Source: a virus (lineage: Duplodnaviria; Caudoviricetes). Taken from it: a DNA stretch of 64,000 nucleotides. The notes beneath the pieces were generated by a model that was not told where the DNA came from, made no database searches, and saw only the letters and a program-made list of their open reading frames with translations. Shown one piece after another: positions 4,388 to 43,549 of this stretch; the stretch's first letter is position 1; every line of letters begins with the position of its first letter. The translations under genes and the position numbers were made by a program. The stretch is from positions 1 to 64,000 of IMG/VR virus record IMGVR_UViG_3300026549_000045. One strand, given 5' to 3'.

Positions 4388-4987
4388 TCACTTCTCGCGC
4401 AGCAAGCGACGCTGCCACTCACGGCGCATGGGCTCTGCATAGACGTCGGGCGTGTCGGTGTCACGGCAGAACGCCTCTATCATGTCTATCTGGGCGTACT
4501 TCTCGTCACGGTGCTCTCTGGCATATCTGTCGGCATAGTCGCTGACGGCCTGCCAGAACGCCTCTCTCAGGATGCGCTGTATGACCTTCGCCTGCTTCAT
4601 GCCGAAGTTCACGTCCAGCGTCCACGGACGCAGCACGCCGCTCCTGGTCATGCACAGCCTGGGACACTCGATGGGCAAGTACTGCAGCAGACTTTCCTTT
4701 GTCGCTCCGTAGCTCTCCTCTATCGCCGTTGGATCAATCCTCATGCCGGCATCCAGCGCATTGCGGAACGTGGCCGAGATGGAGTTGCCAATAGGTCCGT
4801 TCCCCATCGGCTCGTTGGCCGTCTCCAGGCGCAGCGCACGTCTGGCTCCCGGCAGGTGCTGAATGCTCACCACCTTCCAGTCCTTCACCATTGCGCCACC
4901 GCCGAGTTCGTGCTGAACCCAACCTTGGATAAAGTCCGTTACTTTCAGCCAGCAGATAGCCGGTGCTCTGTATTGCCGTTCGCTCAT
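4388..4987 (-). CDS. Hypothetical protein
   Basis: ~200-aa ORF convergent with the loader gene; TAATTTTG -7 box at 5021-5014. Confidence 0.7.
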   Translation of the reverse strand: MSERQYRAPAICWLKVTDFIQGWVQHELGGGAMVKDWKVVSIQHLPGARRALRLETANEPMGNGPIGNSISATFRNALDAGMRIDPTAIEESYGATKESLLQYLPIECPRLCMTRSGVLRPWTLDVNFGMKQAKVIQRILREAFWQAVSDYADRYAREHRDEKYAQIDMIEAFCRDTDTPDVYAEPMRREWQRRLLREK

Positions 4988-5611
4988 TATCAATCCATTA
5001 CGCCTTCACGGTGCAAAATTACGAAATTTCAGCGAGCAAAAAGAAACTTTCGCCATTTATCAGAAATCACCCGAATTTCCCTGTTTTCACCTCAAAAAAA
5101 TAACTGTTCTGATAAATTTACGAAACTGGTGAGTATCAGTAAGTTAGCAGCCAAAACACAGCGAAAAACAGCCCTCCGAGTTATTTTCTTCCTGATAACT
5201 TGCAACCGCCTGACATTCAAGTCGTTGCGAAGTCGAAAAAGTGTATTTATCAAAAAATCGCGTTTTTCGGCGAAACTCAGAAATTTTTCTAAAACTCTCT
5301 GAAATTCCTGTATTCTTTCTCATTCATCAAGCAACGCGCACGTCTCTCCCTTACACCCACAATAAGTAAAACAAATATATACAAATAAAATAAATGACTG
5401 ATAATCAATAAATTATATATTATATATAGCTCGTTATTTTTCTTTTTTGGAACACTTATCCCACCAAGGAAATCAAAAATAACCCCGATTTTTTCGGATA
5501 AATAATTGATAATCAGCGCGTTAGGAGTTTATAAATGATTTTGCAACTATCTGATAACCTGATAACTCCTTAACAAAATTTTTTGCCGCCGCGCAGATAA
5601 CTCCCTCAAAA

Positions 5612-38851: not shown

Positions 38852-39538
38852 ATGAAACATCTGGATATTACAATAGACTTTGAGACCTGCGCCATGACAG
38901 CCAACGCGGCTGTGATGCAGGTTGCAATGGTGCCTTGGCTGAGAGACAACGATGCAGACCCATTCTCGTTTGACGATATGGATATATATGAAGGTTGCGT
39001 GGATCTGAGGACATGCGTGGTGGATGGCTTTGACTTTGACCCAGAGACTATCAAGTGGTGGTCAGAGAGAAACCTAAAGGCAAAGGAGGCGGTGACGAAG
39101 GGAGAACCGAAAGCTGTTGACGACGTGTTGATTGGCATGCTGAACTACATCCGCGAACTCAAAGAGAAGCATGCGCTGACAAGCATCTTTGTATGGTGTC
39201 AGGGCATGGACTTTGACATTGCGATACTGAGGAACCTGTGTCGTAAGTATGGCGTGAAACTTGAAGAGAACATACCGCACACGTCGTTCAGGGATTGCCG
39301 CACGGTGATACTGGAAGCTGCACTGATAGAGGCCAGTCGCAGTCTGAACGGAAAGAGTACACGTGCTAACGGCATCATACTGCCCGAGCAGATACTTGCA
39401 GGCAGCTACGATGTTTACAAGATGTTTGATCCCCTGCCAGAACGCTATTCTGCAGGAAGCGAGGCTCACGACGCACTCTACGATGCCTTGCGCTCAAGTT
39501 GGAACACCTGGCAGGCACTGAAATGGTTGAACGCTTAA
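38852..39538 (+). CDS. DEDDh 3'-5' exonuclease (Rv2179c/DUF5051-like)
   Basis: IDFET, TIKWW, VWCQGMDFDIAIL, RDCRT, HDALYDA. Confidence 0.85.
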   Translation: MKHLDITIDFETCAMTANAAVMQVAMVPWLRDNDADPFSFDDMDIYEGCVDLRTCVVDGFDFDPETIKWWSERNLKAKEAVTKGEPKAVDDVLIGMLNYIRELKEKHALTSIFVWCQGMDFDIAILRNLCRKYGVKLEENIPHTSFRDCRTVILEAALIEASRSLNGKSTRANGIILPEQILAGSYDVYKMFDPLPERYSAGSEAHDALYDALRSSWNTWQALKWLNA

Positions 39539-39551
39539 CAAAAGGAAACGA

Positions 39552-39989
39552 ATGATGAACAATACTATATACATCAGCGGGCCTATCAGCGACCCGACTA
39601 CGAGCCAGCCGAGGACTGGATGGCAGAAGGAATTTCTGGAGGCCGAGGCGAAGTTGCGCCGGATGGGCTTTTCAGTAATGAACCCGGTTGACATTGCGCG
39701 TGATGTGGAGGAAGCCTTCAGGCAGGAGCCAACACGTGCGGACTATATTCTGGCTTGTTTGGAGCGGATGAAAGTGGCACAAGAGACAGGCATACTGCAC
39801 GGCGTGTACCTTATCGGTGATATCGACGCATGCAAAGATTCGCATGGTGTACAGATGGAACTTCACTTGGCAGAGATATTGGGCATCCCGGTATTTGCAG
39901 AGTTCCGCGCTGACAATGAGATATGGACTGACAGTTTCTATCTGAAGTCGGAAAGAACTATAGAAGGGCTGCTGGAAGATAAAGCGTAA
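39552..39989 (+). CDS. DUF4406-like (nucleoside deoxyribosyltransferase-like) protein
   Basis: IYISGPIS, F..AEAKL..GF.VMNP, SHGVQME..A..LGIPV. Confidence 0.75.
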   Translation: MMNNTIYISGPISDPTTSQPRTGWQKEFLEAEAKLRRMGFSVMNPVDIARDVEEAFRQEPTRADYILACLERMKVAQETGILHGVYLIGDIDACKDSHGVQMELHLAEILGIPVFAEFRADNEIWTDSFYLKSERTIEGLLEDKA

Positions 39990-41024: not shown

Positions 41025-42179
41025 ATGAAAGCAGATTACATTTACTTTGGCGACGCTGGCATGACCAGCACCAGTGCCAACCATGCGGCGAACATGGCGA
41101 AAGAGAGTGTGAGACACCTGATGGACGAACTGGCAGGTGTGAGTTTCTATGGTACTACGGTGAGCCTATTGAGCAGCGGTGCAGGCGCCAAGCAGAGCAA
41201 GGTCGGCAACACGGCTGAGCAGCTTGACGGCACATATGACAAGCTGAAAACCATCGGCGAGGCCCATGCGCTGATAGCCTGGCTGCGTGAAGCCATCAAG
41301 GCCCGTGAGCGACTGTTGGCAGAGGTGAAGAACATGACGCTGGCAGGGTATTGCAAGACGGTGTTAGGCGGTGTTGAAGTGCCAAAGGCAGACACGAACA
41401 TCGTGGACTGGATGAAGGAGAAGGGTTATACCAAGCCAGACATCAACGGTGAGTTTCCTGATGTGGAGCATAAGCGTATCATTGGCATACCGGTTGCCCC
41501 ATTGGAATTGTTCTGCAAGAAGTTCGGACTGAAGATGCCCGATGCGGTGAAGAAGCAGGAGCCGATGACAGTCGATGACTATATGGCCGGACTGAGTGTA
41601 AAGGATCGTAACCGCATGTTGTTGTTGGAAGCCAAAGCCGCCGTGATTGGCAAGTTCATCCATGAGGATGGAAAACTCGACAAGGAGCGTAAGTCGCTGC
41701 GTGAGGTGCTGTCGCATCCCGTCGGAACACATGGCGAGGGACAGAACATGCTCCTATACCAGTTTGAGCCCACAGTGACGCAGGAGTATGTTGATGGTAT
41801 GTTCTTCCGTCTGGCTGCAGAGCATCGTGCCCTACAGGCAGAGTTGAACGGTATGCTGGCCGAGCGTGACCGTACCATCGAGGCCGACAAGCAGGCTAAG
41901 GCAGCAGAGTTTCAGAAGGCATCTGCAGACTTCTCGCGTGAAATGAGTGTGTTGCAGGATAAGTTGTCGGCATATCTCGTGGAAGAGCAGAGCAAGCTGA
42001 GCAAGATGCAGGACGAATACAATGCCTGGTCTATGGACCAGAAGAACCGCCATCAGGAGTTGTGCGCAAACATGGAGACATGGAAGCTGGCAGAAGCCAA
42101 GCGTATTGCTGGGCTGGGCATCATCATCCCGAACGAGTTGCGTGACATCTATGAGTGGGTGAACGGACTGGGTAAATAG
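41025..42179 (+). CDS. Unknown coiled-coil protein immediately upstream of a structured ncRNA
   Basis: N-terminal FGDAGMTSTSANHAANMAKE, AWLREAIKARE, C-terminal LGIIIPNELRDIYE. Confidence 0.85.
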   Translation: MKADYIYFGDAGMTSTSANHAANMAKESVRHLMDELAGVSFYGTTVSLLSSGAGAKQSKVGNTAEQLDGTYDKLKTIGEAHALIAWLREAIKARERLLAEVKNMTLAGYCKTVLGGVEVPKADTNIVDWMKEKGYTKPDINGEFPDVEHKRIIGIPVAPLELFCKKFGLKMPDAVKKQEPMTVDDYMAGLSVKDRNRMLLLEAKAAVIGKFIHEDGKLDKERKSLREVLSHPVGTHGEGQNMLLYQFEPTVTQEYVDGMFFRLAAEHRALQAELNGMLAERDRTIEADKQAKAAEFQKASADFSREMSVLQDKLSAYLVEEQSKLSKMQDEYNAWSMDQKNRHQELCANMETWKLAEAKRIAGLGIIIPNELRDIYEWVNGLGK

Positions 42180-42204
42180 TCCATTGGATTTCTTTGACTT
42201 ATTG

Positions 42205-42641
42205 AGACACAGGTAGCCGCAGACTGAATGGATTTCCTGCGAAACTGCGGCGCACCGACAGCGGAGGGTGGTCTTGTTTATAGCACGTGCCAACATTTAC
42301 GGGCTATCGGCAAGTATCAAAAGACAGTTCAGAAGGTCGCGGGTTCGATTCCCGCCTTGCGTGCTAAGCAAGTAGTTCAGCTGGTTAGAACGTTTGAAGG
42401 TTGCAAAAGTTTGCAGGTTCGAGCCCTGCCCCGTCTTGGACGGGTGGCGGAAGTGGTAGACGCGGGTCTTTTTGGTAGATCTACTTATCGCAAAACAAAA
42501 AATGACGTTGCCGCACGACACTCATACGGAGAGGCCGTCGCCTCCCGAGAAGGATCTTGCTCTTGCTGAGTGTGGCAATGGTTCTTGCTTTTGTTCATGC
42601 CTTTGTCGCTGAAATCATCTGCCGTCGCCGGGCCTGTGTCT
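42205..42641 (+). ncRNA. ~440-nt structured RNA with two circularly permuted tRNA-like modules
   Basis: Closing helices AGACACAGG/CCTGTGTCT, GCAGA/TCTGC and GATTTC..GCGA/TCGC.GAAATC; T-arm > acceptor hairpin > D-arm modules at 42328-42398 and 42413-42464. Confidence 0.8.
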
Positions 42642-42682
42642 TTTCATAGAATACGAATATTGACAAATACAAAGCTACAATT

Positions 42683-43549
42683 ATGTCAAATACAACTTCA
42701 GACTTAAAACCTATAAAGGGTAAGTGTATCTACACAACCAAAGGTGCCGCACGAGAGTATGGCCGTATAGGCTGTAACTTCTTCAAGGGATGCCCGCATG
42801 AGTGTGAATACTGCTACCTTAAACGTGGTGCGCCATCGGCAGAACTGGGTGGTAATACTGCTGTGCTGAAGAAATGTCTTGTCAACGAAGACAAGGCACT
42901 TGAGATATTCTGCAAGGAGGCACGGAAGCATATTGAAGTGCTTAAAAAGTATGGTGTATTCTTATCGTTCTCAACAGACCCGATGCTGACGGAGACCAGA
43001 GACCTGACGTTCTCTGCCATCAACTTCTGCATCAGTAATGACATCCATGTGAAGGTGCTTACCAAAAATGCGGATTTCATTCTCTACGACCGAATGAAAA
43101 ACCTGTGTGGCTCTACTGTAGCCAGGGACTATGTGGAGTTTGGCTTTACGTTGACAGGGCGTGACGATATGGAACCCAAGGCTTCATCAAACCACGACCG
43201 CATCGAGGCTATGAGGCTGTTGTATCAGCGTGGATTCAAGACTTTTGCCAGTATTGAGCCGGTCATCGACTGGACGCACTCAAAGATGGTTATAGACCTT
43301 TCGCTTGACTGCTGCAACCATTACAAGATCGGGCTTCGCTCTGGTGTGAAGAAAGACTATTATTCCGTATTGCGAAGCGGCATGGCCATTCAGGAAATGG
43401 TGGAGAAGATCGTGGCAGCAGGACGTACAGTCTACCTGAAGGAGAGCACCCGTGCCTTATTGCGCAGATGCTATATAGAAGAAGAGAGTGAGCGCATATT
43501 GAGTAAGACGCTTGACATTGACGGCAATCCATACAAAACAATTAAATAA
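42683..43549 (+). CDS. Radical SAM protein
   Basis: GCPHECEYCY (CxxxCxxC), FSTDP, VLTKN, ASIEP. Confidence 0.85.
   Translation: MSNTTSDLKPIKGKCIYTTKGAAREYGRIGCNFFKGCPHECEYCYLKRGAPSAELGGNTAVLKKCLVNEDKALEIFCKEARKHIEVLKKYGVFLSFSTDPMLTETRDLTFSAINFCISNDIHVKVLTKNADFILYDRMKNLCGSTVARDYVEFGFTLTGRDDMEPKASSNHDRIEAMRLLYQRGFKTFASIEPVIDWTHSKMVIDLSLDCCNHYKIGLRSGVKKDYYSVLRSGMAIQEMVEKIVAAGRTVYLKESTRALLRRCYIEEESERILSKTLDIDGNPYKTIK

What the first reader, a model, noticed from the sequence alone, without database searches (positions are those of the whole stretch)
41025..42641. Candidate new ribonucleoprotein system: unknown coiled-coil protein plus ~440-nt scaffold RNA
Seen: 25 nt after the stop of the 384-aa TSTSANH protein begins an RNA closed by a long interrupted helix (42205-42243 with 42606-42641). 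It has a second domain (AACAAAA/TTTTGTT, CGTTGCC/GGCAATG, ACACTCA/TGAGTGT, GAGGC/GCCTC) and the permuted tRNA cassette as an inserted arm. A 500-nt gap is exceptional in this densely packed operon. The next gene is a radical SAM enzyme whose start matches the 5650 sRNA loop. Inference: protein and RNA form a dedicated pair, and the radical SAM protein might modify the RNA.
Basis: partly seen in the sequence, partly recalled or inferred. Interest (0 to 1): 0.85.

Follow-up and report, generated by a model that had tools for sequence, protein, structure and literature searches.

The report
New phage RNA with partner protein
A previously undescribed, highly structured 240-450-nt RNA always follows the gene of an equally undescribed helical protein in hundreds of gut and rumen Bacteroidales phages, often inside their tRNA islands, so the pair is a good candidate for a new viral RNA-protein machine of unknown function.

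Summary
The RNA is real. Window 42205-42644 (+) folds into a closing helix P1, a three-way junction with hairpin P2 (conserved ACUGAA/GAAA internal loop), a long helix P3, an inner domain (P4, P5) with single-stranded 6-nt-periodic U-rich repeats, and a U-run.

- **Structure:** 90-94% of cells pair, and 34/44 and 46/81 pairs show compensatory changes.
- **tRNA-like modules:** two YrlA-type permuted modules sit in a variable linker. Relatives carry 0, 1 or 2 of them, in different order.
- **Linkage to the protein:** the upstream protein (at least 1171 clusters, no Pfam family, no known fold) is followed by this RNA in nearly every locus examined. Nothing else in the neighbourhood is conserved.
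- **Context:** tRNA genes, a tmRNA gene or RtcB are often adjacent.
- **Expression:** rumen metatranscriptome contigs cover the RNA at 4-20 times the depth of the ORF and stop at the U-run.
- **Known families:** no Rfam family matches. No Ro60 gene was found in the phage or in five MAGs that carry such contigs.

The gene pairing is strongly supported. Physical binding is inferred, not shown. The radical-SAM link and the "5650 sRNA" match are not supported. First readers of this scan noted the same module in another genome.

The parts
41025..42179 (+). Gene of the 384-aa helical protein (N-terminal GxTSTSANHxANMAKE motif, WLREAIK, GKxIH, RxxQAExN, IIIPN...VNGL C-terminus). It is the conserved partner gene of the RNA.
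   Evidence: ORF. No Pfam or PHROG match. At least 1171 homologous clusters, all named hypothetical. AF2 model pLDDT 86.7. No PDB fold match.
42205..42644 (+). The whole structured RNA, from the 5' strand of P1 to the U-run.
   Evidence: Consensus structure with covariation. RNA-library contigs cover 42105/42210/42245 to 42628/42634/42667.
42205..42214 (+). P1 5' strand (AGACACAGGU). It pairs with 42632-42641.
   Evidence: In the no-tRNA group 6 of 9 P1 pairs show compensatory change.
42216..42251 (+). P2 hairpin: stem 42216-42222 / 42245-42251, internal loop ACUGAA (42223-42228) opposite GAAA (42241-42244), small apical stem P2a.
   Evidence: 23 sequences: 93% paired, 6 of 7 pairs compensatory, covariation score 0.79 against at most 0.17 when slid. 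GACUGA and GAAA are invariant.
42255..42272 (+). P3 5' strand (segments a, b, c). It pairs with 42614-42631. A42258 opposite C42628 is a mismatch in this genome.
   Evidence: 13 of 16 pairs compensatory. The A42258G variant in three RNA runs restores the pair.
42331..42399 (+). Permuted tRNA-like module 1: T arm 42339-42355, closed acceptor hairpin 42356-42372, D arm 42375-42391.
   Evidence: Rfam YrlA partial match 37.9 bits, model positions 23-89. Helices covary.
42411..42463 (+). Permuted tRNA-like module 2: T arm 42413-42429, closed acceptor hairpin 42430-42444, Leu/Ser-type D arm 42447-42463.
   Evidence: Rfam YrlA partial match 27 bits. All 7 acceptor-hairpin pairs are compensatory.
42506..42580 (+). 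Inner domain: P4 (42506-42516 / 42570-42580) encloses P5 (42530-42545) and the first unpaired hexamer tract (about 42552-42569, GAUCUUGCUCUUGC).
   Evidence: P4: 7 of 11 pairs compensatory.
42580..42611 (+). Second unpaired hexamer tract (GGUUCUUGCUUUUGUUCAUGCCUUUGUCGCUG), with NUG every 6 nt.
   Evidence: Unpaired in both consensus folds. Lag-6 identity 0.51 here, and 0.377 against 0.276 shuffled over 47 RNAs.
42614..42644 (+). 3' strands of P3 (42614-42631) and P1 (42632-42641), then U-run 42641-42644. Likely transcript 3' end.
   Evidence: RNA contigs of two studies stop at 42628 and 42634, and no laid run covers 42668-43365.

Best explanation
Window 42205-42644 encodes a member of a previously undescribed class of large structured phage RNA. 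It is genetically coupled to the preceding gene, which belongs to an undescribed all-helical protein family.

**Shown**
- The RNA fold (P1/P2/P3 three-way junction, P4/P5 inner domain) is kept by compensatory changes.
- The RNA lies 20-75 nt after the protein's stop codon, on the same strand, in almost every homologous locus.
- It is the only conserved neighbour of the protein gene.
- It is transcribed. It accumulates above the level of the ORF and appears to end at the U-run.

**Inferred**
- The RNA is made as the 3' end of the protein's mRNA and persists as a stable species.
- It assembles with its cognate protein into an RNP. The two unpaired tracts of 6-nt repeats (2 plus about 5 units) are the likeliest multivalent protein-binding platform.
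- The particle works in the phage's tRNA and RNA-repair sphere. The module sits in tRNA/tmRNA islands and is sometimes followed by RtcB.
- Some lineages, this window's among them, have grafted one or two YrlA-style closed-acceptor tRNA mimics onto the variable linker. This would let the particle engage host or phage factors that recognise the tRNA elbow and acceptor.
For: **Structure**
- P2: 93% paired, 6 of 7 pairs compensatory.
- No-tRNA group: 90% paired, 34 of 44 pairs compensatory; slid controls reach 47% at most.
- Window clade: 94% paired, 46 of 81 pairs compensatory.
- G-U pairs occur only on the + strand reading.

**Linkage**
- The RNA lies downstream in all 20 IMG/VR contigs that carry the protein.
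- About 92 of 107 unique loci are positive by nhmmer.
- No other gene is conserved in 31 diverse loci.
- The 5'-domain model R1 gives one hit per whole phage genome, and in 385 kb of loci its only hits at E<=0.011 lie just after the protein gene on the + strand (one chance partial hit in L029 at E 0.056).

**Expression**
- RNA-library contigs from four studies cover the RNA.
- Depth is 55.6 against 2.5-2.7 in one run, and 26 against 2.8-6.8 in another.
- Two contigs end at 42628 and 42634, and nothing follows the U-run.

**Repeats**
- Lag-6 periodicity is the top lag in 33 of 47 RNAs.
- The tracts are unpaired in both consensus folds.
- The repeat word switches from UUG to AUC or ACG only in the most divergent protein clade.

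**Context**
- tRNA genes lie within about 2 kb in 14 of 39 loci.
- tmRNA genes lie just upstream in L082 and L107.
- RtcB directly follows the RNA in two distant clades.

**tRNA mimics**
- Rfam YrlA partial hits.
- The module helices covary.
- Relatives carry 0, 1 or 2 modules, and the order is swapped in L002 and L057.
Against: - No binding data exist.
- The protein family is acidic (median pI 5.6) and has no recognisable RNA-binding domain or known fold.
- Strict synteny is equally expected for a cis-acting 3' UTR element.
- The repeat-word switch that coincides with protein divergence amounts to only one or two events.
- Contig depth is a per-contig mean, and DNA carry-over in RNA libraries cannot be excluded.
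- Most family members lack tRNA-like modules, so any tRNA-related role of the core RNA rests on gene context alone.
- The consensus structures were derived from the same alignments on which the pairs were then counted.
Confidence: 0.45

Rival explanations
1. An RNA-only 'ornate' phage RNA in the manner of ROOL or GOLLD. The RNA acts or self-assembles without a dedicated protein. The upstream gene is merely the transcription unit it rides on, or a transient chaperone.
For: - Phage-encoded, large and intricately folded.
- Found near tRNA islands, with tRNA-like units in a variable linker. ROOL and GOLLD are described the same way (PMC12286853).
- The protein is acidic and has no RNA-binding signature.
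Against: - ROOL and GOLLD have no conserved protein neighbour. Here the protein is the only invariant neighbour across 27-99% identity.
- There is no Rfam match to ROOL or GOLLD even at E<=10.
- At 240-450 nt the RNA is smaller than those classes.
Confidence: 0.2
2. A cis-acting 3' UTR. The structure serves as an elaborate terminator and exonuclease block that stabilises or autoregulates the mRNA of the upstream protein, and has no function in trans.
For: - Fixed position 20-75 nt after the stop codon, on the same strand.
- The closing helix is followed by a U-run.
- RNA contigs run from within the ORF into the RNA (X2 41860-42634).
Against: - A stabiliser does not need 240-450 nt with invariant loop nucleotides, a hexamer periodicity and grafted tRNA mimics.
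- RNA-containing contigs are 4-20 times deeper than ORF contigs.
- In L100 a further ORF of about 590 nt separates the gene from the RNA.
- In L008 the RNA lacks the U-run and abuts a tRNA gene instead.
Confidence: 0.2
3. A true Y RNA (YrlA family) that binds a host Ro60/Rsr protein, as in the rsr-yrlA-rtcBA operons.
For: - Two modules have the YrlA topology: T arm, closed acceptor, D arm.
- RtcB lies next to the RNA in some relatives.
- Bacteroides thetaiotaomicron has a TROVE protein (control).
Against: - Scores of 37.9 and 27 bits fall below the gathering score of 69, and only the tRNA-like part matches.
- No TROVE gene is found in the complete 135-kb phage or in five MAGs that carry such contigs (these MAGs are incomplete).
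- The GNCGAAN0-1G motif is absent; the RNA has GACUGAA instead.
- Most family members have no tRNA-like module at all.
Confidence: 0.05
4. Not an RNA gene. The region would be a small hydrophobic peptide ORF in the T-rich repeats, or a DNA-level element (iterons or an origin) bound by the upstream protein.
For: - The window has an ATG-initiated 23-codon frame from 42578.
- The repeats have a 6-nt period.
- Initiator genes often sit beside their repeats.
Against: - The ATG lies in the covarying P4 3' strand and is ACG, ATC or GTG in relatives.
- Stop positions differ, and L064 carries a 23-nt insertion that breaks the frame.
- The 113-aa ORF 42228-42569 recurs only in the near-identical (98-99%) loci L043, L044 and L046.
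- Strand-specific G-U pairing and uneven RNA-library depth point to RNA.
Confidence: 0.04
5. The downstream radical SAM enzyme modifies the RNA, making a three-part system.
For: It is adjacent in this window.
Against: - Homologues occur in only 3 of 31 loci. One lies upstream, and two of the three are the window and a near-identical contig.
- Downstream genes differ among the closest relatives.
Confidence: 0.02

Closest known systems
YrlA / bacterial Y RNAs (Rfam RF02553; Chen et al. 2014, PMC4201824)
   Same: - The two inserted modules share YrlA's permuted tRNA mimic: T arm, loop-closed acceptor stem, then D arm.
- The 5' and 3' ends of the RNA pair.
- RtcB is a neighbour in some relatives.
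   Different: - No Ro60/TROVE gene is found.
- No GNCGAAN0-1G motif is present.
- Scores fall below the Rfam gathering score.
- The modules are an optional graft on a much larger conserved core that has no YrlA counterpart.
- The partner gene is an unrelated helical protein.
ROOL (RF03087) and GOLLD (RF01998) ornate phage RNAs (PMC12286853, PMC5737381)
   Same: - Large, intricately folded phage RNAs of unknown function.
- Often found at tRNA islands.
- GOLLD can carry tRNAs in a variable linker.
   Different: - No sequence or structure match.
- Smaller in size.
- Has an invariant adjacent protein gene, which ROOL and GOLLD lack.
- Restricted so far to Bacteroidales phages.
TRAP- or HutP-type recognition of short repeats (own knowledge)
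   Same: Unpaired triplets recur at a fixed short spacing (NUG every 6 nt, 2 plus about 5 copies), as in RNAs bound by oligomeric proteins.
   Different: - No relation to those proteins was found.
- Binding has not been tested.
- The repeats sit inside a large scaffold, not in a leader.
Candidate structured RNAs from viral metagenomes (PMC10690425)
   Same: Same data source (IMG/VR) and the same kind of evidence (covariation).
   Different: - Those candidates are at most 151 nt long (mean 67).
- I could not check whether a fragment of this RNA is among the 10,006 candidates.
- No description of this RNA-protein pair was found there.

Membership tests
YrlA (RF02553) | Reaches Rfam's gathering score (69 bits) over the whole model. 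| tested here: not met
   37.9 and 27 bits. Only model positions 23-89 and 29-81 matched. No hit at the gathering threshold.
YrlA (RF02553) | tRNA-like domain in the order T arm, closed acceptor stem-loop, D arm. | tested here: met
   alignments. The helices covary in 8 relatives.
YrlA (RF02553) | GNCGAAN0-1G motif near the 5' end (PMC4201824). | tested here: not met
   Read directly from the sequence. The 5' region has GCCGCAGACUGAAUGG, and the nearest word, GACUGAA, carries an extra U.
YrlA (RF02553) | Encoded within about 4 kb of a Ro60/TROVE gene on the same strand. | tested here: not met
   No PF05731 match in the complete 135-kb phage record, and none in five MAGs holding related contigs (the MAGs are incomplete).
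tRNA (RF00005) | Full cloverleaf with acceptor stem and anticodon arm. | tested here: not met
   The Rfam hit 42372-42430 spans model positions 7-64 only, at 32 bits. ARAGORN finds no tRNA. The anticodon-like hairpin is missing in L003.
ROOL / GOLLD | Match to the Rfam covariance models. | tested here: not met
   No hit even at E<=10 on 42000-42800. None at gathering threshold in 14 related loci.
ROOL / GOLLD | Phage-encoded, near tRNA islands, no protein partner. | tested here: inconclusive
   Phage origin and tRNA neighbourhood are met. 'No protein partner' is contradicted by the invariant upstream gene.
Any Pfam / PHROG / PDB family (protein) | Significant sequence or fold match. | tested here: inconclusive
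   No Pfam or PHROG hit. PDB profile search E>=0.4. Foldseek PDB E>=0.3. VIA-align Z<=6.6 on helical fragments. The only matches are uncharacterised viral proteins.

The most novel reading that the evidence does not exclude
The helical protein and the RNA form a new kind of phage ribonucleoprotein. The RNA's 6-nt repeat tracts hold several copies of the protein. Its variable arm displays tRNA mimics or other cargo. The particle would then intercept, protect or help repair tRNA-related molecules during infection, for example by engaging RtcB, RNase P or defence nucleases that read the tRNA elbow. That would make it a functional analogue of Ro60-Y RNA particles built from unrelated parts.
Probability: 0.3. 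Interest if true: 0.9.

Novelty: categorically new. Interest (0 to 1): 0.82.

Why it matters
- Large structured bacterial and phage RNAs are rare. Each class found so far (RNase P, tmRNA, OLE, ROOL, GOLLD, Y RNAs) has opened new biology.
- This one is abundant in gut and rumen Bacteroidales phages, whose partner protein has at least 1171 clusters, yet it is absent from Rfam.
- Its partner protein is absent from Pfam and has no known fold.
- The fixed gene pair gives an immediate experimental handle: co-expression, pull-down, cryo-EM.
- The optional, shuffled tRNA mimics show how phages graft tRNA-like modules onto other RNAs.
- The tRNA-island and RtcB context ties it to the currently active question of how phages cope with tRNA-targeting host defences.
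- It also corrects annotation: deposited genomes call small hypothetical ORFs over this RNA.

Tried and rejected
- **Protein homodimer prediction**: no verdict, not used.
- **ESM Atlas feature search**: no usable hit.
- **blastn of the RNA against the phage collection**: no match.
- **Loose pattern scan:** found one chance hit inside an IS66 transposase (L029).
- **Closing-helix finder:** my automatic search failed or mis-called about half of the divergent loci. I therefore relied on alignments of the clear subset and on nhmmer for presence.
- **Model R1:** does not detect the Muribaculaceae-type, L066-type and L082-type 5' domains. Those RNAs are recognised only by the 3' domain or by eye, and their 5' architecture was not resolved.
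- **Hammerhead reading of CUGA...GAAA:** rejected. The flanking strands pair with each other, and the GA after N7 is missing.
- **K-turn reading:** rejected. The residue opposite is A, not G.
- **HEPN Rx4-6H reading of RLAAEH:** rejected. R262 and H267 are not conserved in the L010 clade.
- **Further RNA runs:** about nine more hold roughly 0.12-0.14 of the sampled words.
- **Careful maximum-likelihood tree:** did not finish. The quick tree is cited instead.

Full report
**What is there.** The window belongs to a complete 135-kb IMG/VR virus record. ORF 41025-42179 encodes a 384-aa protein with no Pfam or PHROG family. The next ORF starts at 42683. The 503-nt gap is the only large one in a string of genes otherwise spaced by -38 to 108 nt. 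ARAGORN calls no tRNA in the window. Rfam gives a truncated tRNA hit at 42372-42430 (model positions 7-64). At relaxed threshold it gives two partial YrlA hits at 42331-42399 (37.9 bits) and 42411-42463 (27 bits), against a gathering score of 69. Both cover only the tRNA-like part of that model.

**The RNA is conserved far beyond this phage.**
- Protein homologues of 63-72% identity in four viral contigs all carry the RNA downstream.
- A profile search found a second group, about 30% identical and about 297 aa, in 16 more viral contigs. It also found 272 metagenome stretches (80 kept) and 19 contigs binned into Bacteroidales MAGs: Prevotella, Muribaculaceae, Bacteroidaceae and Porphyromonadaceae.
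- In these, 20-75 nt after the stop codon, the same architecture recurs.
- An nhmmer profile of the 3' domain hits the downstream region in about 92 of 107 unique loci. The remainder are AT-rich variants recognisable by eye, or truncated contigs.
- A pattern scan for the P2 motif in IMG/VR returned exactly the 20 protein-bearing contigs plus one chance hit in an IS66 gene.
- A covariance model of the 5' domain gives one hit per whole phage genome, at the expected place. In 385 kb of loci it gives hits only just after the protein gene, on the same strand.
- Across 31 diverse loci no other gene is conserved next to the pair.
- The protein family has at least 1171 clusters at 90% identity. All are unnamed or called hypothetical.

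**Structure.**
- P2: 7 bp, 93% of cells paired, 6 pairs with compensatory change, covariation score 0.79 against at most 0.17 for slid partners.
- RNAalifold on 11 RNAs without tRNA modules gives P1 (9 bp), P2/P2a, a 16-bp interrupted P3, then P4 and P5. 90% of cells pair and 34 of 44 pairs are compensatory.
- Eight RNAs of the window's clade give the same core plus two tRNA-like modules. 94% of cells pair and 46 of 81 pairs are compensatory.
- Caveat: the structures were derived from these same alignments. Even so, the margins over both controls are large.
- Window coordinates are listed under parts.
P2 branches off as a local hairpin at a three-way junction.
The other two are not.

**Conserved unpaired features.**
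- The P2 internal loop is G-ACUGA(A/C) opposite (N)GAAA-C. GACUGA and GAAA are invariant in 23 diverse sequences.
- I could not assign the loop to a known motif. The hammerhead and K-turn readings fail.
- The 3' domain holds two unpaired tracts with a 6-nt period. Mean identity at lag 6 is 0.377, against 0.276 (sd 0.007) for shuffles.
- Lag 6 is the top lag in 33 of 47 RNAs. Lag 3 is barely raised.
- The repeated word is NUG/YUUG in most lineages. It is AUC(AC) or ACG in the clade whose proteins are most divergent.
- A coding reading is unlikely. The window's ATG lies in the covarying P4 strand and is not conserved. Stops differ, and one relative has a 23-nt insertion.

**tRNA-like modules.**
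- Each module has a T arm, an acceptor stem closed by a loop, U8/R9 and a D arm. This is the YrlA topology (PMC4201824).
- Module 2 has a class II (Leu-type) D arm.
- On a quick protein tree the window clade (8 rows, support 100) has two modules. The L139/L010/L019 clade (support 99) has one. All others have none.
- In L002 and L057 the two module types are in the opposite order.
- The anticodon-like hairpin between the modules, which produces the Rfam tRNA hit, is absent in L003.
- The cassette is therefore an optional, shuffled graft in the variable linker between P3 and P4.

**Not a Y RNA proper.** There is no TROVE gene in the phage or in five MAGs carrying such contigs (the MAGs are incomplete). 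The GNCGAAN0-1G motif is absent.

**Expression.** Contigs were laid from four rumen and gut metatranscriptome studies.
- X2: one 775-nt contig covers 41860-42634 at depth 55.6. Contigs over the ORF have depth 2.5-2.7.
- X4: a contig covers 42105-42628 at depth 26, against 2.8 and 6.8 upstream.
- X6: a contig covers 42245-42667.
- X8: a contig covers 42210-42380.
- No laid run covers 42668-43365.
- This fits co-transcription with the ORF, a 3' end at the U-run and accumulation of the RNA part.
- Contig depths are means, and DNA carry-over cannot be ruled out, so this is supportive and not conclusive.
- Three runs carry G at 42258, which turns the A-C mismatch in P3a into a G-C pair.

**Protein.**
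- The AF2 model is confident (pLDDT 86.7). It shows long helices with two small sheets.
- No PDB fold match was found.
- The only matches are uncharacterised viral proteins.
- The family is acidic (median pI 5.6). It keeps a set of invariant Arg, Lys and His residues and the TSTSANH motif.

**Context.**
- tRNA genes lie within about 2 kb in 14 of 39 loci, often directly flanking the pair.
- Phage tmRNA genes lie just upstream in L082 and L107.
- RtcB directly follows the RNA in L003 and in the unrelated L084/L097/L120 lineage, 4 of 94 unique loci in all.
- Radical SAM homologues occur in 3 of 31 loci at varying positions.
- The claimed match of the radical-SAM start to the 5650 region is 6 nt, which is chance level.

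**Interpretation.**
- Firmly supported: a new, widespread, expressed, structured RNA class that is genetically locked to a new protein family.
- Best mechanistic reading, about 45%: a dedicated RNP that acts in trans in tRNA-related processes of infection.
- Rivals: an RNA-only ornate RNA, and a purely cis 3' UTR element, about 20% each.

**Novelty.** No Rfam 15 family matches in this window or in 14 diverse relatives. Full-text searches found no description. First readers of this scan noted the same module, with RtcB, in another genome. Those notes were unchecked, and I tested their main points here.

Noticed in passing
L082:2174-2557 and L107:2204-2588: Phage-encoded tmRNA genes (Rfam 70.9 and 61.7 bits), with tRNA genes, lie about 450 nt upstream of the protein-RNA pair in these relatives.
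   Followed up: partly
L003:4642-5865; L084:4170-5513; L120:4160-5515: RtcB RNA ligase genes (Pfam E 1e-58 to 1e-62) start right after the RNA in two distant lineages of the family. The window's own phage has no RtcB.
   Followed up: yes
window 42258: The window has A opposite C42628 in P3a. Three metatranscriptome runs and near-identical contigs have G there, which restores the base pair.
   Followed up: partly
L004 (PQ006092.1) 4933-5109: In the deposited bajarodcaudo virus 1 genome a 58-aa 'hypothetical protein' is annotated over the region that matches the RNA's 3' domain. This is probably a mis-call.
   Followed up: partly
window 42228-42569: A 113-aa ATG ORF lies inside the RNA. It recurs only in the near-identical (98-99%) loci L043, L044 and L046, so it is very likely spurious.
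   Followed up: yes
L100:3853-4440: One relative has an extra ORF of about 590 nt between the protein gene and the RNA. It is the only clear exception to direct adjacency.
   Followed up: no
window 42190-42204 and the same place in L001, L002, L003, L008, L055: A conserved word, CTTTGA(C/A)ATATTGA, lies just 5' of P1 in the window clade. It could be a promoter remnant, a processing site or part of the RNA.
   Followed up: no
window 38852-39989: Upstream neighbours are an Rv2179c-like 3'-5' exoribonuclease (PF16473, E 6e-18) and a DUF4406 / nucleoside 2-deoxyribosyltransferase-like protein. Both are shared only with the near-identical contig L043 among the 31 loci compared.
   Followed up: partly
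BFVD A0A6J5N6M1: A 303-aa uncharacterised protein of an uncultured Caudovirales phage shares the fold at 15% identity (Foldseek E 1.6e-12, TM 0.61/0.76). The protein family may therefore reach beyond Bacteroidales phages.
   Followed up: no
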